NCBI GenBank assembly: GCA_030595125.1
Contig: JAUVDV010000021.1
Span: 5,338 to 69,337 of the forward strand
Reading direction: 5' to 3'
DNA length: 64,000 bases
From: Deltaproteobacteria bacterium
GTDB lineage: Bacteria; Myxococcota_A; Polyangia; JAAYKL01
This document shows positions 5,556 to 25,067 of this stretch, piece after piece. Made by a program: the position numbers and the translations under genes. The notes under the pieces are model-generated. The model was given only the letters and a program-made list of their open reading frames with translations, had not been told where the DNA came from and made no database searches. Every line of letters starts with the position of its first letter. The first letter of the stretch is position 1.

Positions 5556-5560
5556 TTCGA

Positions 5561-7819: not shown

Positions 7820-8006
7820 GGCCAGGTGGAAAGGAGGCATCGTTTGGGGAGAGTGAACTTGTGGAGGGGCATAGTCAATGAAGACCTTGTCGTACCAGAT
7901 GCGGAGTATGGTTTACAAAAAACCAATCACGTTGTTTCGAGCTTGGTGATAAAATGTCGTTAGAGAGGATGCAGCTTGTTCGGGTTTGGTTTTTTGGTGG
8001 GAAAAA

Positions 8007-9971
8007 ATGAAGAAGAAAACCCTGTTAATTTTGCTGTTCGTTTGTTCGATGGGCGTTGGGGCCGTTGCTTGCTCGAAGAGTCACGGCAACGACGATCCGG
8101 ACGGCGGAGACGCATCGACGGATACTGACACGGGCACGGATACTGACACGGATACGGGGGAGGAGTGGTGTCCGAAACTGGAGACTTCCTGCGAGGCGCC
8201 GGAAGAACTGGAGGTCTGTGATGTCGTCAAGCTGGGCGCGCCTAGGTTGATCTTCCCGCTGTCGGGCAGGCACATCAGGGATCGACGACCGCAGATTATC
8301 TGGGAGGAGGCTGACGGCGCAACGCAATACCGGCTGGAGATCGCCCGGGACCGCCAGTTTACAGATGTTGTTTATCGCTCTGCCGATAACGAGCCGTACC
8401 CAGGATACGACGACCGGCTGCATCACATCGTGAGCTGCGACCTCGACTGCGGTGTTCACTTCTTTCGCGTCAAGTCTGTGACCTCGCCCGAGTGCGAGTC
8501 GGGAGCGTCATCGTACACGTGGGAGATGTTTGTAGGCATGGCCCCCGGCGACCTCGACCGCGACGGCGTGCCGGACATTATGTACTGGAAGATCATCGAA
8601 CCCGGAGGGGAGATGCAGCCGTACCTTGTTCAGGGCTGGGCATTCTTCGACCTGGACGAGAAAGGCGGGCAGGTTGCTGAAGCGGAGAAGGTCGTGGAGT
8701 TCGAGGTTGAGGGCAGCACAATCGTGCTCAAGGGTTCTACATATCAAGGAGATGTAAACGGAGATGCCTCTACAGATGTTAGCGTGGAAATTATTTTCCT
8801 GGATGCGGCGTATGAATTTGAAACCGCAATAATTGAAACGTATGTGTTTAGCCAATTGCGTTCGGGAGTTTTACAAGGAAAGAATGATGCTATTGGATTG
8901 TTTCAAGGAAGTGTAGGACAACTTTACAATACTTTGTACTCAAACAGATATTCGGACGTCAACGGTGACGGCTATTCAGACATAGCGATTTCATTTTACG
9001 AAGATTATGGAGACACTGGATTCACAGACAAATTGTTGATTTTCTATGGGACTACTGAGACCGTTTCGGTTTTGGACTTGTCAACCGCCGACGTAGTCAT
9101 TCCGTGCCCCATAGGATGCGACTCGGATACAAACTTTGGCAGGCCGGCTAGCCAGGTAGACATCAACGGCGACGGTTTTGCAGACTTGTTCTCAGCATTG
9201 GTGGAATATTCATCCGGTATTTTCGACGCGGGATTATCACACAGCGCGATTATCTTCGGCGATGAGAATTTGCAATCGCAAGTAGATGTGATGACAGAGG
9301 GAGCCATTATTTCATCCCCTCAGTATTCGATCATCTCTGGCGTTTGGGATCTTGGGGATTCTGTATTTCTCGGAAGTGGAGCCGTCAATCCAATGGGTGA
9401 CATTGATTTTGACGGCTATCCTGAGTTGGGCGGGTACCTGCTCGATGCATATGACACAACACAATCTCCACTTGTGGAGACCGGCGGGTGGGTGGTTTTC
9501 GATGACTTTTTCGGATCAGGCCAGCATATGTTACCGGACGTGATGGATACTATTATCGTGGCAGATTTTGACACATACATTGACTATTCAAACACAGAAA
9601 CTATTAGTTTTAATCATCCTTCTGGAGATGTCGATGGGGATGGCATTGATGATTTCATTTTGCTAACAGGACAGGCAAACTCGGGTTCTCCCACTTATCC
9701 GGGACGATATTTCTATCTGTATGGTGAAGAAGACTGGGATGATTTCATCCCTTTGTCTACCATTTCTGCAAATGAGGTTATTATCCCAATCGATGCTTTT
9801 TGCTTGGTAACAACCGACATTGATGGTGACGGAATAGCAGAGTCTATTGGGGCGAGTACATCAGGGAATCACACTGTACAGCTTTCCGCATCTGGGGAAA
9901 CAGTTGAACTTAACTGGGACTGGTCGGATGCCGTCGATTTCTACGGGCCGGTAATTCCAGAAATTTACTAA
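8007..9971 (+). CDS. secreted lipoprotein with TD-repeat linker, FN3-like region and FG-GAP/VCBS-type Asp-rich repeats
   Basis: MKKKTLLILLFVCSMGVGAVAC lipobox; DASTDTDTGTDTDTDTGEE linker; repeated DVNGDGYSDIAI / DINGDGFADLF / DVDGDGIDDFIL / DIDGDGIAESIG calcium-binding-like loops. Confidence 0.7.
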   Translation: MKKKTLLILLFVCSMGVGAVACSKSHGNDDPDGGDASTDTDTGTDTDTDTGEEWCPKLETSCEAPEELEVCDVVKLGAPRLIFPLSGRHIRDRRPQIIWEEADGATQYRLEIARDRQFTDVVYRSADNEPYPGYDDRLHHIVSCDLDCGVHFFRVKSVTSPECESGASSYTWEMFVGMAPGDLDRDGVPDIMYWKIIEPGGEMQPYLVQGWAFFDLDEKGGQVAEAEKVVEFEVEGSTIVLKGSTYQGDVNGDASTDVSVEIIFLDAAYEFETAIIETYVFSQLRSGVLQGKNDAIGLFQGSVGQLYNTLYSNRYSDVNGDGYSDIAISFYEDYGDTGFTDKLLIFYGTTETVSVLDLSTADVVIPCPIGCDSDTNFGRPASQVDINGDGFADLFSALVEYSSGIFDAGLSHSAIIFGDENLQSQVDVMTEGAIISSPQYSIISGVWDLGDSVFLGSGAVNPMGDIDFDGYPELGGYLLDAYDTTQSPLVETGGWVVFDDFFGSGQHMLPDVMDTIIVADFDTYIDYSNTETISFNHPSGDVDGDGIDDFILLTGQANSGSPTYPGRYFYLYGEEDWDDFIPLSTISANEVIIPIDAFCLVTTDIDGDGIAESIGASTSGNHTVQLSASGETVELNWDWSDAVDFYGPVIPEIY

Positions 9972-11753: not shown

Positions 11754-12092
11754 GTGAAGAATTACTATAGAGCGTCTTTTTTGATGATGATGATCGTGTT
11801 GCTTTTCGCAGTGTCTGCCTGCCACGAGGAGGAGGAGGAGAGCATCTGCGATCTGTACTGCTCCGCTTCGGAGGATTGCAGCTACGTGAGCGGCCAGATG
11901 TTCAGCTGGAGTGAGTGCCAGGACCAGTGTAACGAGGCCATGGAGCGCCATGAATCGATAGGCTGCGGGGACAGGATGGCGGACTTGTACTACTGCCTGA
12001 TCGATCTTCCGTGCCCGAGCTGGAACGATTACGGGGCAAGATGCGCCGCAGAGATCGATTACCTGGACCTCTGCGTGGGTGGGACTTCTTGA
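11754..12092 (+). CDS. small Cys-rich lipoprotein
   Basis: Signal/lipobox LLFAVSAC; 12 Cys in 112 aa. Confidence 0.45.
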   Translation: MKNYYRASFLMMMIVLLFAVSACHEEEEESICDLYCSASEDCSYVSGQMFSWSECQDQCNEAMERHESIGCGDRMADLYYCLIDLPCPSWNDYGARCAAEIDYLDLCVGGTS

Positions 12093-13246
12093 CAACGCTC
12101 GCGGCCCTGTTCCGCGCATTCCTCATCGGCCTGGCGGGCATGCTGTTCTTGGCGATCCTCTGGGTTGCGTTCTGGTCCTTTTACAACCCGTTCGTGGACG
12201 TTCCAGCTCCGTTGAAGAAATCCTTTCAATCGGTTCGTGGAGACGAGACGGGGAGGGTGCTCTTTCTGGGTGACTTTGCGCCCACGGATCGCGCGCTCCC
12301 GTATCTCGAGAAGCACGGATACGGATATCCCTACTCCAAAACACTCGCGCTCCTTGCGTCCCACGACGCCGTGCTGGCAAATCTGGAAGCGCCGATCACG
12401 ACCGCGCGGAGGCCCTGGCCGCTCCCCAAAAAATATACCTACAAGATCCATCCGGACGCGGTCCCCGCAATGCAGAGCGCCGGGATCGACGTGGTGACCC
12501 TGGCCAACAACCACTCCCACGACTACGGGCGACGCGGGCTTCACGACACCCTTCGCAACCTGGCCGGGGGAGGCATCGCTCACATCGGCGCGGGCATGTC
12601 GGAAGCGGCGGCGCGGCGGGGAATTGTCATCGAGACTTCCGGCGGGCGACTTGGGGTACTTTCCTACATGCAGGACCAGTTGCAGTGGCGAGTGTGGACA
12701 GGCGCCTTCGCCATGGACGCTCCGTTTCGAAACTGGTCCGGATCCGCCCGACTCGACTATTCCGATCTACTCGAGGATATCGAAAGATTGCGTTCCGCGT
12801 CCGACGTGGTCGCCGTGGTCGTGCACTGGGGCTCGAACTACAAACCGGTGAACGATCGCCAGCGTGCCATCGGGCGGGCCTGTATCGACTTCGGCGCCGA
12901 TGTGGTGATCGGGCACCACCCTCATCAGTATCAACCCGTGGCAATGCACAGGGGACGGCCCATCGTCTACAGCGTCGGCAACTACGCATTCGGAACTATC
13001 GGCAACTCCAAAATGCGGTTCGGCATGGCTGCGGCGCTCCACCTGCGGGATGGTCGGGTCAGGGGAATCGAGTTTACCCCCTTGCTCACACAGAATCGGA
13101 TTGTGAAATATCGCGTTCGCGCGGCCAGAGGTAAATACCTCAGGTCCTTTATGCATGATTTTATTGAAGAATCAGGGGCGGAAGGGGCGACCGTAGAAGA
13201 GCGAAACGAGGTCGCCTGGCTGGAACTCGAGCGACAATTAGAATAA
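12041..13246 (+). CDS. CapA/PGA_cap-family metallophosphatase-like protein
   Basis: N-terminal TM segment then a CapA-like region (VVTLANNHSHDYG, GHHPHQYQP, VYSVGNYAFG). Start uncertain: ATG at 12041 overlaps the upstream gene, TTG at 12089 is an alternative. Confidence 0.65.
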   Translation: MRRRDRLPGPLRGWDFLTTLAALFRAFLIGLAGMLFLAILWVAFWSFYNPFVDVPAPLKKSFQSVRGDETGRVLFLGDFAPTDRALPYLEKHGYGYPYSKTLALLASHDAVLANLEAPITTARRPWPLPKKYTYKIHPDAVPAMQSAGIDVVTLANNHSHDYGRRGLHDTLRNLAGGGIAHIGAGMSEAAARRGIVIETSGGRLGVLSYMQDQLQWRVWTGAFAMDAPFRNWSGSARLDYSDLLEDIERLRSASDVVAVVVHWGSNYKPVNDRQRAIGRACIDFGADVVIGHHPHQYQPVAMHRGRPIVYSVGNYAFGTIGNSKMRFGMAAALHLRDGRVRGIEFTPLLTQNRIVKYRVRAARGKYLRSFMHDFIEESGAEGATVEERNEVAWLELERQLE

Positions 13247-13334
13247 AAAAACGACTTTCGTAGTATTTCCTTGAAAAGGAGTAAAACGAAAGTTGGCGAA
13301 AGCAAATGATTGTGGTAGGTTCCCACCCCGCTAC

Positions 13335-13365
13335 GTTGACTTGGACACGTCAATAAAGACAGTAG
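13335..13365 (+). promoter_or_regulatory. putative promoter/operator palindrome upstream of ACP operon
   Basis: TTGACttggacacGTCAA inverted repeat with a TTGACT -35-like hexamer, in an AT-rich leader ~25 bp upstream of the ACP start. Confidence 0.25.
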
Positions 13366-13387
13366 ACCGTTATAGGACAAGAGCGAG

Positions 13388-13624
13388 ATGAAAAACCGAA
13401 TTGCAGAAATCATCATCAACGAGCTTAAGCTCAAGGACGTCACCGCCGACACATTCGATCCCAACCTGGACCTCATCGAGGACCTGGGGATAGACAGCAT
13501 GGAACTGACCACTATTGTGGTTGTCTTGCAGGATGAGTTCAGCATCAAAATAGATGAGGACGATTTCGGACAACTGACCACTCTGGCCAAGATTACCGAG
13601 TACATCGGGAGCAAGAAGGGCTAG
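13388..13624 (+). CDS. acyl carrier protein
   Basis: 78 aa with phosphopantetheine-attachment motif LGIDSMEL. Confidence 0.8.
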   Translation: MKNRIAEIIINELKLKDVTADTFDPNLDLIEDLGIDSMELTTIVVVLQDEFSIKIDEDDFGQLTTLAKITEYIGSKKG

Positions 13625-13630
13625 CCGATC

Positions 13631-14641
13631 GTGGGCGTTACCTTCAAGCAGATCCTTTCCGATCCTGTAATAGACGAGCGCTGGAATAGGGTAAAAAAGT
13701 ACTTTTTCCTGCGCGAGTCCACTTACGACATGACCTGTCGTTGCAACCTCAAGTGCGAGGGTTGCTATTACTACATCGGCGACAAACAGTACGCTAAGGA
13801 CGAGATGGACACGGGCAAGTGGCGCGCGCTTCTCACTGCGGAGAAAGAGCGGGGAATCACATTCGTCGTCCTCGCCGGCGCGGAGCCGTCTCTCGTGCCC
13901 GAGCTTTGCAAGGTCTGCTACGATGTCATTCCCCTGGGCGCCATCGCCAGCAACGGGTTGAAGCCATTTCCCAAGGATATCGGATATCGGATTCACATCT
14001 CCGTATGGGGCGACGACGAGGAGTCCAAAAAGTTTCGTGGACGGGCCTGCCTCGACCAGCAACTAAAGAGCTACGGTGGTGACGAGCGGGCGGTCTTCGT
14101 CTACACGTTTACAAAGCGAAATATCGACCAGGTCGACTCGGTGGTGGAGCGAATTGCGGCGTGTGGTGGAAAGATTCACTTCAACATGTTCTCGCCGACG
14201 GGCGGCTACACGGGTGAGCTCACCATGGACGCAGACGCTTTTCACCGCACCCGCGACAAGATGCTGGAGATGCTGGATCGGTATCCGGAGACGGTCCTCT
14301 ATTCCGGTTACAACGCCGAGGTTCACACGGATCCGGAGCGCTCGCTGCACGCCCGGTTCAAGTGCCCGTACCCGCGCTGCAACCCCGACACCAGGCTGGG
14401 GCTCGGTCGCAGCTTTCGCCAGTACCGATCGGACCTGACCTGGGATCGTTCCGTGGCCTGTTGTGTGCCGGATACCGATTGCCACGACTGTCGTCACTAC
14501 GCGGCCGGATCGGCCATCGTGACGGCCCGAATGGCGCAACACGTGAGCAGCGAACTAGAATTCAAAAAGTGGCTGGACTATGTGGACACCTACCTGGCCG
14601 TGTGGGTACAGGGCTATGAAAAAGGGACCAATCTGTGCTGA
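13631..14641 (+). CDS. radical SAM protein (paralog 1), C-terminal Cys-rich auxiliary region
   Basis: CNLKCEGCYY (CxxxCxxC); GAEPSL motif; C-terminal CPYPRC...CCVPDTDCHDC cysteines. GTG start 7 nt after the ACP stop. Confidence 0.75.
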   Translation: MGVTFKQILSDPVIDERWNRVKKYFFLRESTYDMTCRCNLKCEGCYYYIGDKQYAKDEMDTGKWRALLTAEKERGITFVVLAGAEPSLVPELCKVCYDVIPLGAIASNGLKPFPKDIGYRIHISVWGDDEESKKFRGRACLDQQLKSYGGDERAVFVYTFTKRNIDQVDSVVERIAACGGKIHFNMFSPTGGYTGELTMDADAFHRTRDKMLEMLDRYPETVLYSGYNAEVHTDPERSLHARFKCPYPRCNPDTRLGLGRSFRQYRSDLTWDRSVACCVPDTDCHDCRHYAAGSAIVTARMAQHVSSELEFKKWLDYVDTYLAVWVQGYEKGTNLC

Positions 14642-15645
14642 CCATAAACAATCTCATCCAGGACGAGGACACGCGTCGCAAGTACCATGATATAAAGACC
14701 ATGGTCGGATCCAGCGGAATGCGCAGTTCCATCTACGACGTCAACAATATCTGCAATCTGCGCTGCAAGGGTTGCTTCTATTTTTCCAGCGACCAGCACA
14801 AACTGGACGACCAGAAAGATCTCGATGTGCTTCAGGCATTCATCGAAAGAGAGAAGGCGCGAGGCGTCAACTACGCCATCCTCATCGGAGGCGAGCCGTC
14901 CCTGACCCTGGATCGCCTCGACGTCTGGTACGCAAATGTAAAATGCTCATCCGCTACCAACGGCATCAAGAAGATCGAACGGGATCGCTATCCTGATATG
15001 CGCGTGGGGATTTCCCTGTGGGGCGACGAGGAAGACGAGATCAGGTTGCGCGGCAAGAACACTTTCCTCATATCCCGGCAAAACTATCGCAACGACCCGA
15101 ACGTCTATTACCTGTACACCGTCACGGCGCAGACCATCGGCCAGATGGAAACCGTAACCAAGAAGATCGAGGAAGCGGGGCTGCGGGTTCACTACCAGCT
15201 GTTTTCCAACGATCAAGGTGAGGAAGGGATGGACTGGACCGAGGATCTTTACAAGGAGGTCCGTGACAACATGGACGCGATGCTCGACAAGTATCCGCAC
15301 GTTGTCATCTCGTCCAAATACTATCACGAGGTTCTCACCACCCAGACAATGTTAGGTCGGCGTTTCGGATGGATGGAGTGCCCGTCAGTTTCTGATGCCG
15401 TGGACAATCGCGATCCTCGACCCAAGAGGCTCGCCGGTTTCAACTCCTACGGATCGGACTACAAAACTGTCCACCGTTGCTGCACCTCTGTCACCCGCGA
15501 CTGCGCCACCTGTCACGACGGCGCCGCCACCATGTCGTGGGTAATGGTCAACAAGCGCGAGCACATGACCGACCCGGTGGACTTCGCCAACTGGGTGGAC
15601 GTCACCCACATGTTTGCAAAGCTCTACGAGTATATTCCCTGGTAG
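14635..15645 (+). CDS. radical SAM protein (paralog 2)
   Basis: CNLRCKGCFY; GGEPSL; C-terminal HRCCTSVTRDCATCHDGAA; clearly paralogous to the upstream gene. GTG start overlaps the upstream stop (GTGCTGA). Confidence 0.75.
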   Translation: MLTINNLIQDEDTRRKYHDIKTMVGSSGMRSSIYDVNNICNLRCKGCFYFSSDQHKLDDQKDLDVLQAFIEREKARGVNYAILIGGEPSLTLDRLDVWYANVKCSSATNGIKKIERDRYPDMRVGISLWGDEEDEIRLRGKNTFLISRQNYRNDPNVYYLYTVTAQTIGQMETVTKKIEEAGLRVHYQLFSNDQGEEGMDWTEDLYKEVRDNMDAMLDKYPHVVISSKYYHEVLTTQTMLGRRFGWMECPSVSDAVDNRDPRPKRLAGFNSYGSDYKTVHRCCTSVTRDCATCHDGAATMSWVMVNKREHMTDPVDFANWVDVTHMFAKLYEYIPW

Positions 15646-15668
15646 TTATCGGCGGCCGCCATCATCTG
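15594..15668 (+). repeat. direct repeat (left copy) = native 3' end of radical SAM gene + 23 bp
   Basis: tgggtggacgtcacccacatgtttgcaaagctctacgagtatattccctggta + ttatcggcggccgccatcatct; near-identical copy at 16437-16511. Confidence 0.7.
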
Positions 15669-16436
15669 AATTGTAAGGTTTACCCACCACCAAACGAGAA
15701 GAGCCCTCAATCTTTATCCCGCCCAAAACCTATAGGTCGCTTGCTTGATTTCTTTGTCGGGCTCACAAGCAGTCCGATGGCCTCGAAAACGACTTTGAAT
15801 TGTTTGTCGTGGTTTTTCATTTTTATATCGATGTCGGCGAGCTTTTTTGCGAGGGCCTTGTTTGTGGACAGGATCTCGCGCAGTCGTACGAAAGTTCGCA
15901 TGATGGCGATATTAACCTGGATGGCTCGTTGGCTGTTCAAGACGCTGGAGAGCATGGCCACGCCCTGCTCTGTGAAGGCGAGGGGATAATAGCGTCTACC
16001 CCCGTGTCCTTTTGAGGTGCCAGATTGGCACCTCAAGAATTCGTCCTTTGTGAGTTGAAACATGAAATCTTCGGGAAATCTGCCGATGTTTCGTCTGACA
16101 GCTCGATTCATGACTTTTGTTTCTACCTCGTAGAGTTGTGCGAGGTCAGAATCCAAAAGGACTTTCTGTCCGCGAACGATGCGGATCAGGCTGCCGACAT
16201 GTTCAATTGGTACTATTTCGCTTTTACTCATTTCACGATTCCTACTGGTTTTTGTGAGCCCGACCAATATGGCCCGGAGACACTTCTATGAAAGTTGAGC
16301 AACATTTATGCCTGCGATGCATCCCGAGTAGAATGCTTCTGTGGAGGGGATATGCAGATCTCAATTGTTGGTCAAAAGCGGCGAAACATACGGCGCCCGC
16401 CGCCACACGCTGCCGGAACCGCCGGGGGATCGAGTG
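15669..16436. mobile_element. 768-bp insertion flanked by ~75-bp direct repeats, carrying an ORF6N-domain gene
   Basis: Bounded by the duplicated 3' end of the radical SAM gene. No integrase or transposase is visible, so this is a possible remnant of an integrative element. Confidence 0.35.
15707..16267 (-). CDS. ORF6N-domain protein (phage antirepressor-like)
   Basis: N-terminal IVPIEHVGSLIRIVRGQKVLLDSDLAQLYEVETKVMNRAVRRNIGRFPEDFMFQLTKDEF matches the ORF6N/KilA-N-like domain fold pattern. Confidence 0.65.
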   Translation of the reverse strand: MVGLTKTSRNREMSKSEIVPIEHVGSLIRIVRGQKVLLDSDLAQLYEVETKVMNRAVRRNIGRFPEDFMFQLTKDEFLRCQSGTSKGHGGRRYYPLAFTEQGVAMLSSVLNSQRAIQVNIAIMRTFVRLREILSTNKALAKKLADIDIKMKNHDKQFKVVFEAIGLLVSPTKKSSKRPIGFGRDKD

Positions 16437-16511
16437 GGTGGACGTCACCCACATGTTTGCAAAGCTCTACGAGTATATTCCCTGGTAATTGACGGCGGTC
16501 GCCATCATCTT
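16437..16511 (+). pseudogene. duplicated 3' fragment of radical SAM gene (right copy of direct repeat)
   Basis: Encodes ...WVDVTHMFAKLYEYIPW*, identical to the C-terminus of the CDS ending at 15645. The upstream part of ORF 16288..16488 is unrelated. Confidence 0.6.
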
Positions 16512-16555
16512 CCCCTTCCCCCTCGCAGGGGAAGGCCGGGATGGGGTTCATCGGC
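16506..16555. terminator. palindromic ~50-bp element (ccccttcccc...ggggaagg) immediately 3' of ABC ATPase gene
   Basis: catcatcttccccttccccctcgcaggggaaggccgggatggggtt: GC-rich hairpin. A second copy lies at 54381-54430. Confidence 0.45.
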
Positions 16556-17294
16556 GTTGGTCCTGCAAGTGACGGCATACCAGCTGTACGAACGGGCTTT
16601 CGTGCTCCGGGTCCAGGTCTCCGGGGTTGCCGGTGAATACAATCCGCCCCCCGTCCATCACGGCGACATTGTCTCCCAGACGTTGGGCCTCCGAGGGGTC
16701 GTGGGTGACGTGAATGACCGTTGACCCATGTTGTTCAAAGAGCGACGCGAAGAGGTCCAGCAAGTCATCACGCAAACCAATATCCAGATTTGACAGAGGC
16801 TCGTCCAGAAGCACGGCGTCTGGTTCGAGCACCAATGCCCTGGCAATGGCAACCCGTTGCTGCTCGCCGCCCGAGAGCCGGGCAGGGTAGCGCCGGGCCA
16901 TGTTCTCGAGATCAACCTCCGCAAGAACGCGGGCGATCCTCTTTTTCTGTTCGTCACGAGCAACGCGTCTGGATTGCAGGCCGAAAGAAAGGTTCTCCTC
17001 GACAGTGAGGTGTGGCCACAGCGCCAGGTCTTGCAAAACCACAGCGAGATTTCTTTCCTCCGGAGGTGTATGGACTCTTCCCTTATCGCTGACCACGTCG
17101 CCCCGCAGCCGTACCAGACCACGGCTCGGAGCTGCGAATCCCATTATAATTCTCAACAGAGTCGACTTGCCCGAACCCGATGGGCCAAGTAACGACAGCA
17201 CTTCGCCCCTGGAGATTTCGAGTGATATGCTATCGAGAATCTGTGTCCGGTTGTAACCAAATGACACGTCTTGCAATGCGATGACGACGCTCAT
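16548..17294 (-). CDS. ABC transporter ATP-binding protein (Fe3+/thiamine-type importer)
   Basis: Walker A GPSGSGKST, signature LSGGEQQRV, Walker B LLDEP, H-loop. Confidence 0.85.
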   Translation of the reverse strand: MSVVIALQDVSFGYNRTQILDSISLEISRGEVLSLLGPSGSGKSTLLRIIMGFAAPSRGLVRLRGDVVSDKGRVHTPPEERNLAVVLQDLALWPHLTVEENLSFGLQSRRVARDEQKKRIARVLAEVDLENMARRYPARLSGGEQQRVAIARALVLEPDAVLLDEPLSNLDIGLRDDLLDLFASLFEQHGSTVIHVTHDPSEAQRLGDNVAVMDGGRIVFTGNPGDLDPEHESPFVQLVCRHLQDQRR

Positions 17295-18874
17295 GTCCGT
17301 CTCCTTGTCCGCAGCAGAAATCCGCCCAACGCCAGCAATACGGCGGTAAGCCCGGCATGTAAGATCGACAGCGCAGCTACAACGTCTTCGGGTCCGTTGG
17401 CCTCCAGAGTGAAGATGCGAATGGGCAGGGTCTCATAGCCTGCGGGATAAAAGACCACAACCGTTTCAAGATCGCGCAGACAAAAGACGGCCGCGATCAA
17501 CCACGCCACGAAGATCCTTCGTGAATGCATGGGTATGATGATCCGTCTCAGACGCCGCAGATAGCTGCCGCCGAATGCGCAAGCGGCGTCCTCGTAATCT
17601 GGTGAACTACTGCTCAACACTGCTGCGATGGTTCGCACGCCGATCACAGAATAGCGGGCAATCATCCCCACCACCATGATCGCCGCCGTGGCGTAGACGA
17701 ATTGTGTGCCAGGGCGGTTCCAGGTCGCCACGAGTCCCACGCCCAGGACAGCAGCAGGGGTAACGAACGCCAGTACCGCAGCGCCGTCGAGAAAGGAGCT
17801 CCCGCGTTTGCGACGCGCCAACCGGTGTCCAATGATTGTTCCGAGCACGGTAATGCCGGTAGCGCCGGCCGAGGCCACGAGGAGGCTGTTGATCAGGCTG
17901 TCACCCATCCATCGGCCCAGCCCTTCGAACCCGCTCAGTCCAGCCCTTGATCCCAGCGCTGCTATCGGAACAAAACCGAGGCCGCATATTATCCATACGG
18001 CAATACTGGCCGGAGCTCTCCACCGGCCAAGGTGGAAAATATTCCCTTGCGCCGAGCGGACGCCCATCGAGGCAAACGAGCGTCGCCCGATGAAGCGGCG
18101 TTCGATGAGGAGCAGGAGCAGCGCTATCCCTAGCAATGGAAGAACCAGCGCGAAGGCCTCTCCGGGCGCATAGTCTATTCCCCCGAGACGTGTGAACACT
18201 GCGGCCGCGTATGTCTTGACACGCAAGAACATTGGCACGCCGATTTCGGAAATGCTGAGTGCAAACACTACCAGAGCCGCAAGGGCGATGACCGGCCACA
18301 TCAGAGGTATGAGGATTCGCGTGATAACCCGCGCCGGGCGTGCGACGGATCGGGCAGCCTCTTCCAGGGATGGATCGATCCCTCGCAGACCAAGCACGGT
18401 CAACCCTGTTACCACCGGAGAAAACGCAAATCCCAGAGTGCCGATGAGTCCCGCCGGGCCAAAAAACAACTGCGAGGTATTTTGCGAACCCATCGCTCCT
18501 TGTTGACCGAACAAATGAAACCAGCCCAGAGCGACGAGGAACGGGGGGATGAAAAGTGGGAAACCATGCACAAGCAGGGCGATGGGGAGTCCCATGACGT
18601 CAGTTTTTCCGAGCAGCACTCCCATGGGAATACCGATGATGAGCGCGACTGCTGTGATCGCCAGTGCCAGACCAATCGTCCTGGCGAGCAGCGTCCACGT
18701 GCGAGAGGTCCCCAGTGTGGAATCGATCAGAGACAGCCAGTCGTCTGAAGCCAGAAACTCAACCATGAGAAGAACAAGAGGCGCAAGGACAAGGGCGAGC
18801 AGACAAACAACCGCAGACGAGGAAATCAACGGCTCTTGCGCCCTTTGCCATCGCGCGCTCAGAGCCCCACCCAC
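17291..18874 (-). CDS. ABC transporter permease (FbpB/ThiP-like, duplicated TMD)
   Basis: 527 aa, ~12 predicted TM helices in two repeated halves. Overlaps the ATPase gene by 4 nt. Confidence 0.8.
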   Translation of the reverse strand: MGGALSARWQRAQEPLISSSAVVCLLALVLAPLVLLMVEFLASDDWLSLIDSTLGTSRTWTLLARTIGLALAITAVALIIGIPMGVLLGKTDVMGLPIALLVHGFPLFIPPFLVALGWFHLFGQQGAMGSQNTSQLFFGPAGLIGTLGFAFSPVVTGLTVLGLRGIDPSLEEAARSVARPARVITRILIPLMWPVIALAALVVFALSISEIGVPMFLRVKTYAAAVFTRLGGIDYAPGEAFALVLPLLGIALLLLLIERRFIGRRSFASMGVRSAQGNIFHLGRWRAPASIAVWIICGLGFVPIAALGSRAGLSGFEGLGRWMGDSLINSLLVASAGATGITVLGTIIGHRLARRKRGSSFLDGAAVLAFVTPAAVLGVGLVATWNRPGTQFVYATAAIMVVGMIARYSVIGVRTIAAVLSSSSPDYEDAACAFGGSYLRRLRRIIIPMHSRRIFVAWLIAAVFCLRDLETVVVFYPAGYETLPIRIFTLEANGPEDVVAALSILHAGLTAVLLALGGFLLRTRRRT

Positions 18875-19902
18875 TCTCGCAACCAGGGCTGTATCCTGTT
18901 CATCGTATTTGCCACTTTTGGATAGTCGACGCTCATTACCCGGATGTCTTGCGCACGCATGACACCGGGCGGTGTGGTGACGCCGCTGCGCAACGGCATA
19001 TGAGCAGCGGATTCTGCCATCTTGTGCTCCACCCGGGCATCGAGCAGGCAGTCGATCAGGAGCCGGCCCGCCTTTGCGTTGGGACCATCCCTGATGAGCA
19101 CTACCGTCGTGGGCATGAACAGGGTCCCCATACCGTCCTGGTCGGGATACACGATCGAAACAGGAACGCCTGATTGCACAGCCTGGTAGGCGTCGTCGGT
19201 GTCGGTCAATCCGAATGCAATCTCGCCTGCGGTTACAAGCCGTTTGACTTCTCCGTTGGAGCTCGCAATGCGCACGTTATTTTCTTTTATTGATTTGAGA
19301 AAGTTGCGCGCCTCATCATCACCCCACTTTGCAAACAGGGATGCCACATGCATGGTCGTCGTGCCGAAAAGCGGGTTGGCGATAGCTGTCTGTCCGCGCC
19401 ATCGGGAGTCGGCCAGATCCCGTATGGACCGGGGCATGGCGTCAGCAGTTACAAGGTTGGTGTTTACCAGCAGAACGCGTGCACGCGCTGCGAAACCGGT
19501 CCAGTTTCCGTCCGGGGATTTGAAGGTTGCGGGAAGCCCCTGAGCCCGGGCCGATGTGTATGGTTCCACCAATTTCTTGTCGATGAGCACAAAGGGGCGC
19601 ACCGGGTCACCGGACCAGAAAACGTCAGCCTGTGGTTGATTGGCCTCGGCGATCAGTCTGTTGAGAACACCGGTACTCTTGGTTTCCTCAGTGTCAAAAA
19701 CCGCTTTCACATGCAGCCCCTCGGTCTCTTCACAGTGACGGAAGATGGGTTCGGAGAACACTTGATCCACTGATGTGTACACAACGACTTGCGCGCCCCT
19801 GCTGTCCTCGCCGCAACGGCAGCCATGCCCGATGACAAGTGCAAGAAATACAAGGAGGAACATGGATGCTCTCGTATTTGGCACCGATTTTTTCATGATC
19901 AT
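18859..19902 (-). CDS. ABC transporter periplasmic substrate-binding protein (FbpA/ThiB-like)
   Basis: Signal peptide; family-1 solute-binding fold features; operon partner of the permease and ATPase. Confidence 0.75.
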   Translation of the reverse strand: MIMKKSVPNTRASMFLLVFLALVIGHGCRCGEDSRGAQVVVYTSVDQVFSEPIFRHCEETEGLHVKAVFDTEETKSTGVLNRLIAEANQPQADVFWSGDPVRPFVLIDKKLVEPYTSARAQGLPATFKSPDGNWTGFAARARVLLVNTNLVTADAMPRSIRDLADSRWRGQTAIANPLFGTTTMHVASLFAKWGDDEARNFLKSIKENNVRIASSNGEVKRLVTAGEIAFGLTDTDDAYQAVQSGVPVSIVYPDQDGMGTLFMPTTVVLIRDGPNAKAGRLLIDCLLDARVEHKMAESAAHMPLRSGVTTPPGVMRAQDIRVMSVDYPKVANTMNRIQPWLREWVGL

Positions 19903-20558
19903 TGCGCCGGAGATGGGGCTTCGCTTACCGAAAGATCATCAAACTGGGTTACTGCGTCTGCCTTTGTCCATAGCCCGATCTTGCCCGCATTGGAGAATGT
20001 AGTGTCGTGAACATCGAGATGTTTTTCGCCGTTGAGATAACACTCGATGTGGTCTTCCCGCATGACAATTTTCAGGACATGCCACGCCTCGTGATCGATG
20101 CGCAATGCAGCGCTTTCCAGTTGTTTTCGTTGGCCATCCACCACCTTGTAGACCCGGAAATTGTCCTCGAGGGGGTTGTAACGCGCGACGTAATAGTTGT
20201 TCACGTCTTGGGCGCGCCAGACAAGCCCACCACCCTGATCGACGCGGCCGGATACGGAGCGCAGCCGGACTGAAATATCAACATCCCGGTAGCTGGAATT
20301 CTCCACCAACGCGACGTTGTAGATATGGTCTTCACTTGCGGCAAGTTGCGCCAGAACATGCGATTTGCTCCGCGCGGATTCATCGGTAGCGATCTGCCAC
20401 TTGCCAATCAAAGAAGTGAACCCGGCCGGCAGTTGTTCTGCAACGTCTTCTTCAAATCCCCATTTGTGGATAGTCGTTTCGTTTTCGCCGCTCCTGTCAC
20501 CACCACATCCACCGCAGACCGACACGGTTGCAAACATTGTCAAAACCAGGACCTTCAT
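19899..20558 (-). CDS. hypothetical lipoprotein (DUF1080/laminin-G-like jelly-roll)
   Basis: MKVLVLTMFATVSVCGGC lipobox. LVWRAQDVNNYYVARYNP...HVLKIVMREDHIECYLNG resembles 3-keto-disaccharide-hydrolase-like domains. Confidence 0.5.
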   Translation of the reverse strand: MKVLVLTMFATVSVCGGCGGDRSGENETTIHKWGFEEDVAEQLPAGFTSLIGKWQIATDESARSKSHVLAQLAASEDHIYNVALVENSSYRDVDISVRLRSVSGRVDQGGGLVWRAQDVNNYYVARYNPLEDNFRVYKVVDGQRKQLESAALRIDHEAWHVLKIVMREDHIECYLNGEKHLDVHDTTFSNAGKIGLWTKADAVTQFDDLSVSEAPSPAQ

Positions 20559-20736
20559 CTTTTTACCCTTCCTTGGCCGAGAATGAAGCAGCCTACCAGT
20601 GATTGTGAAAGGACGCCAAGAGGGTGGATGGAGAGGGTGGATGAAGGATATCTTCCGGATGCTCGACCCGGGTTGCAAATCAGGATAAAAGGCCTATGGA
20701 AACAGCCTGATCGGCTTTGTTATTGGAGTAAATGTT

Positions 20737-22005
20737 TTGAGAGAACGTATGAAGACGGACATCGTTCTTTGCGGCTACGACATGATCACGCCGCTGGGCG
20801 AAGGTCTCGACGATCAGTGGGATGCGTTCGCCGCCGGAAAGTCGGGGATAGACCGGGTGGGTCGATTCGAAGTCTCGGACGACTATCCTGTCAGGGTTTC
20901 CGGCGAGGTGCCAGCGGTCGACTTTTCAAGGTACGATTTCTGGAGCGAGCGCAACGCTGCCAACTGGTTCTCGCCTGTCATTTTTCACTCAATGCTGGTG
21001 GCGCAAAAAGCGCTTTCCCATGCGGGCATGACCATCGACGACGACAACGCCGGGCGCGTGGGCATCACGTTCTCCTCGGCCATCGGCGGTCTGGATGCCA
21101 TGATCAAGGCCGAGTCCAGGCTCCAGGAGGGGCTCACCCCGCACCCGTTCACCAACCCCAACGGATGTCTCAACCTCGTGGGCGGCAAGGTGTCCATCCA
21201 CACCGGCGCCAGGGGGCCGATCTTCAGCCCGGTGGCGGCCTGCGCAACGGGGAGCGCATCGGTGGCGACGGCGGCCATGTTGCTGCAGACCGGCAGGGCG
21301 GACGCGGTGATCGCCGGGGCCTGCGATTTTCCGGTCATCCCTTCGCTCCTGGCTTCCTTCGCGTCCATGAACGGCGCGTTTCAGAGCCGCAAGACAGACG
21401 ATCGCAGTCACGACGAACCCGCCAAAGCATCGCGTCCGTTCTCGGTCGATCGGAAGGGTTTCGTGGTCTCCGAGGGGGCGGCCGCTATCCTTGTCGCCAC
21501 CCGCGGATTCGCCGACTCGAACGGCCTGCCGGTGAGGGCGGTGATAGAGGGCATCGGCATGACGTCAGACGCGAGGCACTACGTTGCGCCGGCACTACCG
21601 ACCATCACCAAGTGTATTGAGGAGGCTATTTCCGACGCGGGTGTCAGGCCTCGGGACATTCAGGCCGTCAACGCCCACGCGGCGTCCACCGGAGTTGGAG
21701 ATGCCACCGAGGTCAAGGCGCTTAAGGCGGTCTTTGGCGATGATTTTCAGCTCCCCGTTTCCGCCAACAAGTCCCAGATCGGACACACAATGGGCGCGTC
21801 GAGCGCCATCGAACTGATCATGACTTCGGAGGGTATCCGAAAATCTGCCCTGCTTCCCACGATCAATCACGAGCCCGATCCAAAGCTGGACATCGACGTT
21901 GTCTCCGAGGGTTCCCGCCCAATGGAACATCACCGAGTGCTCTCCAATTCCTTCGGCTTCGGCGGCTGCAACGTCTGCCTGGTCGTGGGAAAGGGCGACG
22001 TCTGA
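20737..22005 (+). CDS. beta-ketoacyl-ACP synthase II-like (FabF family)
   Basis: Active-site Cys (VAACATGSASV), catalytic His residues (NAHAASTGVGD, IGHTMGASS), C-terminal NSFGFGGCNV. Confidence 0.8.
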   Translation: MRERMKTDIVLCGYDMITPLGEGLDDQWDAFAAGKSGIDRVGRFEVSDDYPVRVSGEVPAVDFSRYDFWSERNAANWFSPVIFHSMLVAQKALSHAGMTIDDDNAGRVGITFSSAIGGLDAMIKAESRLQEGLTPHPFTNPNGCLNLVGGKVSIHTGARGPIFSPVAACATGSASVATAAMLLQTGRADAVIAGACDFPVIPSLLASFASMNGAFQSRKTDDRSHDEPAKASRPFSVDRKGFVVSEGAAAILVATRGFADSNGLPVRAVIEGIGMTSDARHYVAPALPTITKCIEEAISDAGVRPRDIQAVNAHAASTGVGDATEVKALKAVFGDDFQLPVSANKSQIGHTMGASSAIELIMTSEGIRKSALLPTINHEPDPKLDIDVVSEGSRPMEHHRVLSNSFGFGGCNVCLVVGKGDV

Positions 22006-22012
22006 CCGCAAC

Positions 22013-23389
22013 ATGAAAGACAAGAACAACGATCGGCTGGACGAGTTCCTGGAGCGTCCCAAAAGAGCCGTGTGGGTTGTCGCAGCCCCCATGATGGCCG
22101 GTTTCATGGTTCACGCATTCTACGCGATTGTCGACGCCGCGTTCATCGGCCGGTTGGGGCCCGAGGCCCTCGCGGCGGCCACGTACGTCGGGGCGTTCTT
22201 CTTTGCCGCCATAGCGTTCACCAACGGGCTCGCCACCGGGATAACGGCGACGGTCGCGCAGGCCATAGGCAGGAGGGACACGGAGAGAACCCACCGGCTG
22301 GCCTCCAACGGGCTCACCCTGGGGCTGTTGATCGGCGTGTTGTTCGCCGCTTCGGGGCTGCTGTTCGGCCAGGAATTGATCGCGTTGATGGGAGCGACAG
22401 GCAAGAGCGCCGATCTGGCGTGGGACTACCTGACTCCCATCTGCATAGGTATGCCGCTGTTCTTTATCTCCACCGCCGTCCGGGCCGTACTGAATGGAGA
22501 AGGTGACGCCAGGACACCGATGATCATCCTGACCATCGCCACCCTGGTAAACGTGGCCCTGGATCCCATCTTCATTTTTACGCTGGGCTGGGGTATCAGG
22601 GGCGCCGCTTACGCCACCGTGCTCGCCCAGGCCATAGCCCTGTCCTGTTTCGTCTACGTGGTCTTCATTCGCAGGCGTATCAACGCCCGTTTCCGGTTGT
22701 CTCTCATGCCGCCTAAGGCGACGTTCATCAAGGAGATCGCCGCCGTCGGTATTCCCATGACTGCGGGCCACATCATCATGGCGGCGGGGATGGGGCTCAC
22801 CAACAAGGTGGTCTCGAAATTCGGCCAGATTGCGGTCACCGGCTACGGCGCGGGCAGCAAGGTGGACATGCTTGTGGCGCTTCCTGTTCTGGGGCTGGCG
22901 GCCGCATCGGTGACCATCATCGGTATGTTCGCCGGGGCGGGTCGGGCCGACCTTGTGAGATCCACCGCGCTGTACACATTCCGATGGGCCATCACAACGG
23001 CCGTCGTGATGGGCGCTTGCGCCTTCCTCGTCTCCGGGACGCTGATCGGTATATTCACCGATGATCCAACGGCGCTCCAGATAGGCAGGGAATACATCCA
23101 CTTCACGGTGTTCGCCTATCCGTTCATGGCCTTCGGTATGACCTCGGGACGGATCCTCCAGGGGCTCGGCTTTGGAGTGCCCACAATGATCATCACGGCC
23201 CTGCGCGTCATTGTCGTCGGGGTCGGCGGATCGTACATCGCGGTGTACGGGTTCGACGCTCCCATCGAAGCGGTCTGGTTATCCTTCATCTGCGGGGGAT
23301 TCTTCGCCAATGTCCTGGCCCTTTTCTGGGTGCGACTGTACGTGTGGAAGCGCGATCCCTGCGTCCTGGCGGAAAGAGCGAGAATGTAG
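22013..23389 (+). CDS. MATE-family efflux transporter
   Basis: 12-TM protein with two MatE-like halves; starts 8 nt after the KAS stop. Confidence 0.8.
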   Translation: MKDKNNDRLDEFLERPKRAVWVVAAPMMAGFMVHAFYAIVDAAFIGRLGPEALAAATYVGAFFFAAIAFTNGLATGITATVAQAIGRRDTERTHRLASNGLTLGLLIGVLFAASGLLFGQELIALMGATGKSADLAWDYLTPICIGMPLFFISTAVRAVLNGEGDARTPMIILTIATLVNVALDPIFIFTLGWGIRGAAYATVLAQAIALSCFVYVVFIRRRINARFRLSLMPPKATFIKEIAAVGIPMTAGHIIMAAGMGLTNKVVSKFGQIAVTGYGAGSKVDMLVALPVLGLAAASVTIIGMFAGAGRADLVRSTALYTFRWAITTAVVMGACAFLVSGTLIGIFTDDPTALQIGREYIHFTVFAYPFMAFGMTSGRILQGLGFGVPTMIITALRVIVVGVGGSYIAVYGFDAPIEAVWLSFICGGFFANVLALFWVRLYVWKRDPCVLAERARM

Positions 23390-25048: not shown

Positions 25049-25067
25049 ATGGCGCAAGAGGTTTGAG

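What the first reader, a model, noticed from the sequence alone, without database searches (positions are those of the whole stretch)
13335..15645. ACP + two paralogous radical-SAM enzymes in a tightly coupled operon, near a FabF-like KAS, a MATE exporter and a B12-binding radical SAM: cryptic acyl-ACP/lipid tailoring pathway
acp (13388..13624) is followed after 6 nt by a radical SAM (GTG start), which overlaps a second paralogous radical SAM by 7 nt (GTGCTGA). Both are ~336 aa with CxxxCxxC and a C-terminal Cys cluster, suggesting an auxiliary Fe-S cluster. Within 6 kb lie a FabF-type KAS and a MATE exporter, and a B12-binding radical SAM sits at 2478..3695. ACP-linked radical-SAM pairs are typical of unusual lipid chemistry (C-C coupling, cyclisation, methylation of acyl chains, e.g. 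ladderane or membrane-spanning/ether-lipid proposals) or of ACP-tethered natural products. The specific enzymes are not identifiable from motif alone. A TTGAC...GTCAA palindrome overlaps a -35-like box upstream.
Basis: partly seen in the sequence, partly recalled or inferred. Interest (0 to 1): 0.7.

Follow-up and report, generated by a model that had tools for sequence, protein, structure and literature searches.

The report
Carrier protein with two radical-SAM enzymes
This is a real and widely conserved bacterial gene module of unknown product: a dedicated acyl carrier protein, two sister radical-SAM enzymes and a chain-extending enzyme. It most likely makes a modified fatty acid without oxygen, and it is not the ladderane machinery of anammox bacteria.

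Summary
A and B are paralogues (30% identity, E 2e-48). Both have CX3CX2C plus five invariant C-terminal cysteines.

Neither enzyme reaches any curated family. The AlphaFold model (pLDDT 94.6) places A among SPASM/Twitch radical-SAM enzymes, with no close characterised relative.

ACP-A-B-KS is collinear in nearly all of 87 related loci from Myxococcota, Desulfobacterota, Spirochaetota and SAR324. In a relative with 90% nucleotide identity the operon is acp-A-B-KS-MATE. The window carries a 5.1 kb insertion between B and the KS.

In Desulfobacterota and Spirochaetota the module sits inside a large lipid cluster that resembles aryl-polyene and "ladderane-type" clusters. The window also keeps that cluster's 420-aa B12 radical-SAM enzyme (62% identity).

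A direct test against published Kuste3342 and Kuste3343 sequences shows A and B are not the anammox enzymes. Tes, HpnH and housekeeping AcpP membership also fail.

Most likely this is an oxygen-independent radical modification of a growing acyl-ACP, which the dedicated FabF-like KS then extends. The exact chemistry is unknown.

The parts
13293..13321 (+). Conserved promoter-like element: TTGGCG, 17-nt spacer, TGn-TAGGTT (an extended -10)
   Evidence: The pattern TTGGCR-N12-TGTGRTAG lies 75-111 nt upstream of the ACP start in 12 of 13 Myxococcota-clade sequences and occurs once in the 64 kb window. The generic consensus scan did not call it. Its function is inferred.
13336..13353 (+).
   Evidence: It is present as described. 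In L008 and L015 it reads ATGACTTGAACACGTCAT, a change on both arms that keeps the symmetry. It is absent in more distant relatives. Its role is unknown.
13388..13624 (+). Dedicated acyl carrier protein ('ACP2' of the large cluster)
   Evidence: PF00550 E 1.7e-11. It is below every AcpP cut-off. It is 58% identical to the ACP directly upstream of rSAM-A in L001. An ACP precedes A in 81 of 84 loci.
13631..14641 (+). Radical-SAM enzyme A, SPASM/Twitch-type fold, uncharacterised family
14635..15645 (+). Radical-SAM enzyme B, paralogue of A, start overlapping A's stop by 7 nt
   Evidence: 30% identity to A, E 2e-48. 57% identity to the gene after rSAM-A in L001. It follows A in 76 of 78 loci with room, plus L008 where the two overlap.
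15646..20757 (.). Lineage-specific 5.1 kb insertion that splits the operon; not part of the pathway
   Evidence: It is absent from L008, which matches the window on both sides at 89-91% nucleotide identity. It holds an ORF6N-domain gene (15707..16267, -) flanked by a 76-nt direct repeat of the 3' end of rSAM-B (15592-15667 and 16435-16510). It also holds an ABC transporter (16548..19902, -) and a lectin-like gene (19899..20678, -).
20737..22005 (+). FabF-like beta-ketoacyl-ACP synthase ('KS1'); the probable start is ATG 20749
   Evidence: 49% identity to the KS directly after rSAM-B in L001, against 40% to the second KS there. Best solved relatives are FabF (235 bits). It is below the FabF equivalog cut-off (338 against 494). 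The Cys-His-His motifs ACATG, NAHAAST and IGHTMG were read by eye from those alignments. It follows B after 16 nt in L008.
22013..23389 (+). MATE efflux transporter, 7 nt after the KS stop
   Evidence: TIGR00797 245 bits against a cut-off of 147. PF01554 E 4.5e-54. It follows the KS in L006-L009 only, so the link is limited to the close subclade.
2478..3695 (-). B12-binding radical-SAM enzyme ('B12rSAM420'), probable third radical enzyme of the pathway
   Evidence: 62% identity over 397 aa to L001:1287-2549. That gene lies within 10 kb of the ACP-A-B module in 21 loci and is divergently adjacent to it, with one small gene between, in L075. It is not TIGR04072 (47.8 bits against a cut-off of 360). 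It was not found near the module in the other Myxococcota-clade loci, so the link is inferred.

Best explanation
The three genes are the front of an ancestral operon, acp - rSAM-A - rSAM-B - KS (followed by MATE in this subclade). It encodes a self-contained side branch of type II fatty-acid synthesis.

Proposed working:
1. An acyl intermediate is carried on the dedicated ACP.
2. Each of the two paralogous SPASM/Twitch-type radical-SAM enzymes cleaves SAM at its CX3CX2C cluster. The resulting 5'-deoxyadenosyl radical abstracts a hydrogen from an unactivated carbon of the tethered chain.
3. The auxiliary Fe-S cluster, held by the five conserved C-terminal cysteines, takes the second electron. 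The net result is an oxygen-independent two-electron modification. Desaturation is the most likely outcome and ring-closing C-C bond formation the next.
4. The two paralogues act at two positions or two successive steps.
5. The dedicated FabF-like KS extends the modified chain, or builds the substrate. This follows the logic of FabA/FabB, where a special KS handles an unusual intermediate.
6. Housekeeping FabD, FabG, FabZ and FabI supply the remaining steps.
7. The B12 radical-SAM enzyme 9.6 kb upstream probably adds a further modification.
8. The product leaves through the MATE here, and through MMPL/LolA-like proteins in the large clusters.

Shown: gene anatomy, paralogy, fold class, conserved cysteines, the conserved ACP-A-B-KS linkage, and non-identity with every characterised family tested.

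Inferred: that the substrate is ACP-bound, the role of the KS, and above all the chemistry and the product.
For: - The ACP is real and not housekeeping.
- A and B are intact radical-SAM enzymes: CX3CX2C, a GxEP/GGEP motif, five invariant C-terminal cysteines and a confident model with a SPASM/Twitch-type fold.
- ACP-A-B-KS is collinear in 76/78, 81/84 and 60/62 loci across Myxococcota, Desulfobacterota, Spirochaetota and SAR324.
- The minimal form, ACP-A-B-KS alone, recurs in L008-L016 with unrelated flanks.
- In the large clusters the module is surrounded by FAS/PKS parts: a FabZ-like dehydratase, a second KS, a 4HBT thioesterase, PS-DH fused to a PPTase, PlsY and MMPL.
- The KS is FabF-like with intact active-site motifs.
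- The carriers named in the loci belong to groups that are mostly anaerobes, which fits oxygen-independent chemistry (oxygen tolerance itself was not tested).
- A more distant relative (45% identity) is again paired with an ACP gene.
- Radical-SAM desaturation of inert lipid carbons now has a precedent in the archaeal enzyme Ted (bioRxiv 10.1101/2025.10.20.683597).
- Desulfotalea psychrophila, whose family relatives carry the module, makes C31:8 and C31:9 hydrocarbons without a known PUFA synthase (PMC2649909).
Against: - No biochemical or lipid data exist for any member.
- The chemistry cannot be read from the fold. SPASM/Twitch enzymes also make C-S and C-C cross-links, decarboxylate and epimerise.
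- No thioesterase, acyltransferase or PPTase lies in the minimal operon, so release of the product is unexplained.
- The MATE and B12 links rest on a few loci.
- About 60% identity across phyla could also fit a cofactor-type function or recent horizontal spread.
- Whether D. psychrophila itself carries A and B was not checked.
Confidence: 0.55

Rival explanations
1. It is part of the anammox-type ladderane pathway, or its precursor pathway. A and B would then be the counterparts of the radical-SAM pair Kuste3342/Kuste3343 (DP1853/DP1855).
For: In Desulfobacterota and Spirochaetota the module lies in clusters that hold a TIGR04072 'lipid biosynthesis B12-binding/radical SAM protein' (419 bits against a cut-off of 360). 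The literature notes that antiSMASH calls 'ladderane' clusters in non-anammox phyla including Desulfobacterota and Myxococcota (PMC9902471). Rattray et al. reported synteny between Kuenenia and Desulfotalea (PMC2649909).
Against: A direct test used the protein sequences in the supplement of PMC4790861.
- Kuste3343 is 45-47% identical to a different SPASM radical-SAM gene in the Desulfocapsaceae loci and has no tblastn hit in the window.
- Kuste3342 is 33-38% identical to the TIGR04072 gene and only 27% over 165 aa to the window's B12 enzyme.
- By BLASTP, Kuste3343 matches A and B only over the ~57-59 residues of the radical-SAM core motif.
- The window lacks every other gene of the anammox-shared part of the cluster.
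Confidence: 0.03
2. A and B couple two acyl tails end to end, as Tes, GDGT-MAS and Mss do, to make membrane-spanning diacids.
Against: Tes scores 16.8 and 17.4 bits against a cut-off of 450. From established knowledge and the review PMC13459092, Tes and Mss act on finished lipids and need no ACP or KS. The tight ACP and KS linkage argues for action during chain growth.
Confidence: 0.07
3. A and B insert sulfur into a carrier-bound acyl chain. The logic would follow LipA, the LipS1/LipS2 pair or BioB, giving a cofactor-like thiolated acid, with the auxiliary clusters as sulfur donors.
For: Two paralogous radical-SAM enzymes, each with an extra cysteine cluster, act next to a carrier protein, which parallels LipS1/LipS2. 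Conservation across phyla is very high (~60%). The neighbours in this lineage are housekeeping genes (TsaE, RluD).
Confidence: 0.08
4. A and B add the 5'-deoxyadenosyl radical to a double bond of an enoyl-ACP, as HpnH or MqnE do, or they are peptide (RiPP) maturases that merely sit next to fatty-acid genes.
For: A gives a weak collinear N-terminal hit to HpnH (18.8 bits). Its nearest solved folds are RiPP maturases (SkfB, SuiB, CteB).
Against: The HpnH cut-off is 225 bits. No precursor peptide or RiPP recognition element is seen. The small upstream gene is a bona fide PP-binding ACP, and the conserved partner is a KS.
Confidence: 0.05

Closest known systems
Radical-SAM genes of the Kuenenia stuttgartiensis kuste3335-3352 cluster and its Desulfotalea counterpart (Kuste3342/3343, DP1853/DP1855; Rattray 2009, Javidpour 2016)
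   Same: These are radical-SAM enzymes embedded in an extended type II FAS cluster with extra ACPs and FabF paralogues, and their function is unknown. In Desulfobacterota the A/B module lies within a few kb of the Kuste3342-like (TIGR04072) and Kuste3343-like genes.
   Different: They are different proteins. Kuste3342 is a B12-binding radical-SAM enzyme and Kuste3343 a classical SPASM protein. Neither is orthologous to A or B. The window's lineage has A and B without any of the anammox-shared genes.
SPASM/Twitch radical-SAM enzymes with solved structures (SkfB, anSME, BlsE, BtrN, MoaA)
   Different: Identity is only 11-20%. The SPASM Pfam model is not hit. The cysteine pattern is C-x31-CC-x5-C-x2-C rather than the seven-cysteine SPASM motif. 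The partner is an ACP, not a peptide, sugar or nucleotide.
Lipid-modifying radical-SAM enzymes (Tes/GDGT-MAS, Mss, GrsA/GrsB, HpnH, Jaw5, Ted)
   Same: All use radical chemistry on inert lipid carbons without oxygen. Paralogue pairs that act at different positions are known (GrsA/GrsB). Ted is a precedent for desaturation.
   Different: Those enzymes act on finished isoprenoid lipids, or in the case of Jaw5 with a type I PKS. None is coupled to a free-standing ACP and a FabF-like KS. The Tes and HpnH models are far below cut-off. The 2026 review names only ladderanes and the Jaw5 product as ketoacyl lipids proposed to be radical-SAM modified.
FabA/FabB (and FabX) anaerobic unsaturated fatty-acid synthesis
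   Same: The pathway logic is shared: a modifying enzyme acts on a growing acyl-ACP, and a dedicated KS accepts the unusual intermediate.
   Different: The modifying enzymes here are radical-SAM proteins, not hot-dog dehydratase/isomerases or flavoenzymes, and the ACP is dedicated. This is an analogy only and nothing was tested.
Aryl-polyene (APE) type II PKS-like clusters
   Same: The large clusters that hold the module also carry ApeP-like and ApeI-like dehydratases, a KS-CLF, a ketoreductase, LolA-like and MMPL proteins.
   Different: APE clusters have no radical-SAM enzymes. The window has none of the APE-like genes.

Membership tests
Radical SAM superfamily | CX3CX2C motif binding a [4Fe-4S] cluster, within a partial TIM barrel that binds SAM | tested here: met
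SPASM/Twitch subgroup of radical SAM | C-terminal cysteine-rich domain holding one (Twitch) or two (SPASM) auxiliary Fe-S clusters | tested here: inconclusive
   Five invariant C-terminal cysteines, and the best folds are SkfB, anSME and BlsE. However, PF13186 is not hit, the seven-cysteine SPASM motif is absent, and cluster binding cannot be tested with these tools.
Anammox 'ladderane-cluster' radical-SAM enzymes (Kuste3342, Kuste3343) | Orthology to the published Kuenenia proteins | tested here: not met
   The sequences came from the supplement of PMC4790861. Kuste3343 has no tblastn hit in the window. Kuste3342 gives only 27% over 165 aa to the B12 enzyme. BLASTP against A and B matches only the core motif.
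TIGR04072 lipid biosynthesis B12-binding/radical SAM protein | Score at or above the curated cut-off of 360 bits | tested here: not met
   The window's B12 enzyme (2478..3695) scores 47.8 bits. The true member in L001 scores 419 bits.
Tetraether synthase Tes (NF045702) | Score at or above the curated cut-off of 450 bits | tested here: not met
   A scores 16.8 bits and B 17.4 bits, over the N-terminal core only.
Adenosyl-hopene transferase HpnH (TIGR03470) | Score at or above the curated cut-off of 225 bits | tested here: not met
   A scores 18.8 bits. B is not listed among its best 25 families.
Housekeeping acyl carrier protein AcpP (TIGR00517 and the PRK00982 models) | Score at or above the equivalog cut-offs (66-106 bits) | tested here: not met
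   The best score is 46.6 bits against 71, and TIGR00517 gives 38 against 70.45. The PP-binding domain and DSM serine motif are present. Whether a separate AcpP exists in this genome cannot be seen from 64 kb.
Beta-ketoacyl-ACP synthase II FabF (TIGR03150) | Equivalog cut-off of 493.75 bits, and a Cys-His-His triad | tested here: inconclusive
   It scores 337.8 bits, below the cut-off. The best solved relatives are FabF. The triad motifs are present by eye in the alignments, with HAAST in place of the usual HGTST. It is a FabF-like paralogue, not the housekeeping enzyme.
MATE efflux transporters (TIGR00797) | Score at or above the cut-off of 147.4 bits | tested here: met
   245.4 bits. PF01554 E 4.5e-54.
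Conserved ACP-rSAM-A-rSAM-B-KS module (defined here) | Collinear order of orthologues of all four genes | tested here: met
   All four orthologues are present in the window. The order is kept, but the KS is displaced by a 5.1 kb insertion that is absent from L008.

The most novel reading that the evidence does not exclude
A and B would be the first radical-SAM enzymes found to work directly on acyl-ACP inside type II fatty-acid synthesis. On this reading they form a widespread oxygen-independent route to unsaturated or ring-bearing fatty acids in bacteria of mostly anaerobic groups (at least 586 matching stretches in species-representative genomes). The four-gene operon of this lineage would be the minimal natural form of that route.
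Probability: 0.3. Interest if true: 0.85.

Novelty: new variant of a known kind. Interest (0 to 1): 0.6.

Why it matters
Radical-SAM chemistry on lipids is so far established almost only for isoprenoid lipids. [quoted passage not shown]

This module ties two uncharacterised radical-SAM enzymes to a dedicated ACP and a KS. It recurs in several hundred genomes of sulfate reducers, syntrophs, cable bacteria, spirochaetes and uncultured Myxococcota.

It also clears up a confusion. 'Ladderane-type' clusters reported outside anammox bacteria hold at least two separable parts, and this part is not shared with the published Kuenenia enzymes.

The Myxococcota form is only four genes (five with the exporter). 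That makes an old open question, what these clusters make, directly testable by anaerobic heterologous expression. Earlier attempts with the 18-gene Kuenenia cluster failed.

Any product could also serve as a lipid biomarker for anoxic sediments.

Tried and rejected
- **Curated families.** Pfam and NCBIfam scans of A and B gave no family-level hit. No solved structure is closer than SkfB.
- **Ladderane orthology.** I first assumed A and B were the Kuste3342/3343 (DP1853/DP1855) pair described by Rattray. The sequences recovered from a paper supplement showed otherwise.
- **Naming distant relatives.** Cluster-member look-up of ten representatives gave only 'hypothetical' or 'radical SAM' labels and no anammox organism.
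- **AlphaFold-database fold search.** The library was not available.
- **Riboswitch or other RNA in the leader.** There is no Rfam hit anywhere in the window.
The scan does not call it and it is not conserved beyond the closest relatives.
- **PGA_cap gene upstream, and the TPR/periplasmic-binding gene downstream of the KS in L011-L016.** Each is conserved only within a subclade, so I treated them as synteny rather than pathway members.
- **Other large-cluster genes in the window.** A tblastn search for KS-CLF, FabZ-like, 4HBT, PS-DH/PPTase, PlsY, LolA, KR, ApeP and MMPL found none.
- **Literature.** Searches for a characterised ACP-linked radical-SAM pair in these phyla found nothing.
Full report
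**Observation.**
- The ACP gene (13388..13624) has a PP-binding domain (PF00550, E 1.7e-11) and a GIDSM serine motif.
- rSAM-A starts at GTG 13631, six nucleotides after the ACP stop codon.
- rSAM-B starts at GTG 14635 inside GTGCTGA, overlapping the stop of A by seven nucleotides.
- Both enzymes are 336 aa. They are paralogues with 30% identity over their whole length, E 2e-48.
- Both carry CX3CX2C near residue 40. Five C-terminal cysteines (C245, C277, C278, C284, C287 in A) are invariant in an alignment of 71 family members plus B.
- The FabF-like KS (20737..22005), the MATE (22013..23389) and the B12-binding radical-SAM enzyme (2478..3695, minus strand) are also real.

**What the two enzymes are.** Neither reaches a family-level model in Pfam or NCBIfam. 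Only the N-terminal radical-SAM core matches, against many unrelated families at 15-34 bits where cut-offs are 180-650.
- An AlphaFold model of A built on 72 sequences is confident (mean pLDDT 94.6, pTM 0.92).
- A sequence profile finds only SkfB in the PDB, at E 1.5e-10 over the core.
- I therefore read A and B as active radical-SAM enzymes with one probable auxiliary Fe-S cluster, belonging to a family that has not been characterised.
- The family is compact. Among 1.84 billion representative proteins, 543 match at E <= 0.001 and 80 at E <= 1e-30. True A orthologues stay 60-64% identical across phyla.

**Conserved context.** Protein and genome searches brought in 87 loci that carry an A orthologue.
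- A tblastn survey with the genes of one complete cluster (L001) and with the window's own genes shows one recurring collinear unit, ACP - A - B - KS.
- B follows A in 76 of 78 loci with room. One apparent exception is L008, where B overlaps A; the other is a short contig. The ACP precedes A in 81 of 84, and a KS follows B in 60 of 62.
- Carriers are Desulfobacterota (Desulfobulbales including Candidatus Electrothrix, Desulfosarcina, Syntrophaceae/Smithella), Spirochaetota, uncultured Myxococcota and SAR324.
- At least 586 stretches in species-representative genomes encode a relative.

**The large cluster.** In Desulfobacterota and Spirochaetota the unit sits inside a cluster of about 20 kb.
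- Upstream and divergent: an ApeP-like dehydratase, a ketoreductase, a LolA-like protein, a 228-aa protein and a 420-aa B12 radical-SAM enzyme.
- Then: a first ACP, a KS-CLF fusion, a TIGR04072 B12 radical-SAM enzyme (419 bits against a cut-off of 360) or a methyltransferase, and a FabZ-like dehydratase.
- Then ACP2 - A - B - KS1.
- Downstream: KS2, a 4HBT thioesterase, PS-DH fused to a PPTase, sometimes PlsY, a glycosyltransferase and an MMPL protein.

**What the window keeps.** The window holds orthologues of five of these genes and nothing else:

| Gene in the window | Identity to the L001 counterpart |
|---|---|
| 420-aa B12 radical-SAM enzyme | 62% |
| ACP2 | 58% |
| rSAM-A | ~62% |
| rSAM-B | 57% |
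| KS1 | 49% (40% to KS2) |

- In the window's own clade (L005-L016, 72-96% identity to A) only ACP-A-B-KS recurs, and the flanking genes change.
- The closest relative L008 (a 'Deltaproteobacteria bacterium' MAG; 96% protein identity for A) matches the window at 89-91% nucleotide identity on both sides. There the KS starts 16 nt after the stop of B, and the MATE follows the KS.
- The window therefore carries a 5.1 kb insertion (15646..20757) that splits an ancestral acp-A-B-KS-MATE operon.
- The insertion contains an ORF6N-domain gene flanked by a 76-nt direct repeat of the 3' end of rSAM-B, an ABC transporter and a lectin-like gene.
- The MATE follows the KS only in the close subclade (L006-L009).

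**Regulatory signals.**
- The motif TTGGCR-N12-TGTGRTAG lies 75-111 nt upstream of the ACP start in 12 of 13 sequences of the clade. It occurs once in the 64 kb window, at 13293..13318. It reads as a -35 box with an extended -10.
In L008 and L015 it changes on both arms (ATGAC...GTCAT) and keeps its symmetry. It is not found in more distant relatives.
- No Rfam family matches anywhere in the window.

**Comparison with known systems.** The obvious candidate was the radical-SAM pair Kuste3342/Kuste3343 of the Kuenenia 'ladderane' cluster, reported as shared with Desulfotalea (PMC2649909).
- The supplement of PMC4790861 prints both protein sequences, so the link could be tested directly.
- Kuste3343 is 45-47% identical to a different, classical SPASM radical-SAM gene that lies just upstream of the FabZ-like gene in the Desulfocapsaceae loci. 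It has no hit in the window.
- Kuste3342 is 33-38% identical to the TIGR04072 B12 enzyme. It matches the window's B12 enzyme only at 27% over 165 aa.
- BLASTP of Kuste3343 against A and B aligns only the ~57-59 residues of the core motif.
- So A and B are not the anammox enzymes. The 'ladderane-type' clusters of non-anammox bacteria, noted for example in PMC9902471, consist of at least two separable parts. The window has the part that is not shared with the published Kuenenia proteins.
- Tes (17 bits against 450), HpnH (19 against 225) and TIGR04072 (48 against 360) memberships fail. The ACP fails all AcpP cut-offs. The KS is FabF-like but below the FabF equivalog cut-off.
- The 2026 review of lipid-modifying radical-SAM enzymes lists no enzyme of this kind. 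[quoted passage not shown]
- Five literature searches found no characterisation of this pair.

**Mechanism.** The shown facts are a dedicated ACP, two intact paralogous radical-SAM enzymes with a probable auxiliary cluster, and a dedicated FabF-like KS, all inherited as one unit and able to stand alone.
- The simplest reading is a side branch of type II fatty-acid synthesis. A chain on the dedicated ACP is attacked at unactivated carbons by the 5'-deoxyadenosyl radical, and the auxiliary cluster accepts the second electron.
- The KS then extends the modified intermediate. A dedicated KS is hard to explain if only finished chains were modified.
- I rank desaturation first. The carriers belong to mostly anaerobic groups. 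A radical-SAM lipid desaturase has just been shown in archaea (Ted). D. psychrophila, whose family relatives carry the module, makes C31:8 and C31:9 hydrocarbons without a known PUFA synthase.
- Ring-closing C-C bond formation comes second.
- Tail coupling, sulfur insertion, adenosylation and peptide maturation are weaker rivals, for the reasons given under each.
- The substrate, the sites of attack, the product and its fate (membrane lipid or exported small molecule) are all inferred. Whether the B12 enzyme 9.6 kb upstream takes part is plausible but unproven. It is cluster-associated in 21 loci and adjacent in L075, but it is not near the module in the other Myxococcota-clade loci.

**Verdict.** The ladderane and Tes analogies and the promoter reading are not supported. 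This is an uncharacterised, widespread variant of radical-SAM lipid tailoring. Its minimal four-gene form in this lineage makes it unusually easy to test.

Noticed in passing
window 15592-15667 and 16435-16510, with the gene at 15707..16267 (-): A 76-nt direct repeat (95% identical), made of the last 54 nt of rSAM-B plus 22 nt downstream, flanks an ORF6N-domain gene (PF10543, E 4.6e-33). It looks like a small integrated element, or its remnant, that used the 3' end of rSAM-B as its attachment site and restored the gene end.
   Followed up: partly
window 15646-20757: This 5.1 kb segment is absent from the relative L008, which shares ~90% nucleotide identity. It holds the ORF6N gene, an ABC transporter (ATPase 16548..17294, permease 17291..18874, binding protein 18859..19902, all on the minus strand) and a 3-keto-disaccharide-hydrolase/lectin-like gene (19899..20678, -). 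Other relatives (L005-L007) carry different inserts at the same spot, so the B-KS junction seems prone to insertion.
   Followed up: partly
window 4791..5645 (-), 7986..9971 (+), 24876..25931 (+): Predicted secreted or lipoproteins carry long Ser-Asp or Thr-Asp low-complexity linkers just after the signal peptide, one of them in an FG-GAP repeat protein. 4791..5645 also matches DUF7478.
   Followed up: no
L088-L090, 10001-11255: A 45%-identical relative of rSAM-A (P0123) is followed by an overlapping ACP gene inside a glycan-type cluster with glycosyltransferases, sulfotransferases, WcbI and an epimerase. The radical-SAM/ACP pairing therefore recurs outside fatty-acid clusters.
   Followed up: partly
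L091 2222-3331; L092 4982-6106: Relatives about 33% identical to A have no ACP nearby. One lies next to a sulfotransferase and GT2 genes, the other next to a large TPR protein in an alphaproteobacterial MAG. The wider superfamily is therefore mixed in function.
   Followed up: no
L021 6504-9037 (also L022, L052, L069): Desulfocapsaceae loci carry a 496-aa B12 radical-SAM enzyme and a Kuste3343-like SPASM radical-SAM enzyme (45-47% identity) directly upstream of FabZ-like/ACP2/A/B. That makes four radical-SAM genes in a row. Further upstream lie a FakA-DegV fusion, a GT2 and two acyltransferases.
   Followed up: partly
L011 11854-13800; L012, L014, L016 equivalents: A 620-650 aa protein with TPR repeats and a periplasmic-binding domain (LppC/LpoA-like) directly follows the KS in several Myxococcota-clade loci. 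It is absent from the window.
   Followed up: no
window 12011..13246 (+): A PGA_cap/CapA-family protein (PF09587, E 1e-67) with an N-terminal membrane segment lies directly upstream of the ACP promoter. It is kept there in the close subclade only (L005-L009, L015).
   Followed up: partly
window 20737..22005 and the KS1 orthologues: KS1 orthologues share HAAST in place of the usual FabF HGTST around the first catalytic histidine. This is a possible signature of altered substrate handling.
   Followed up: no
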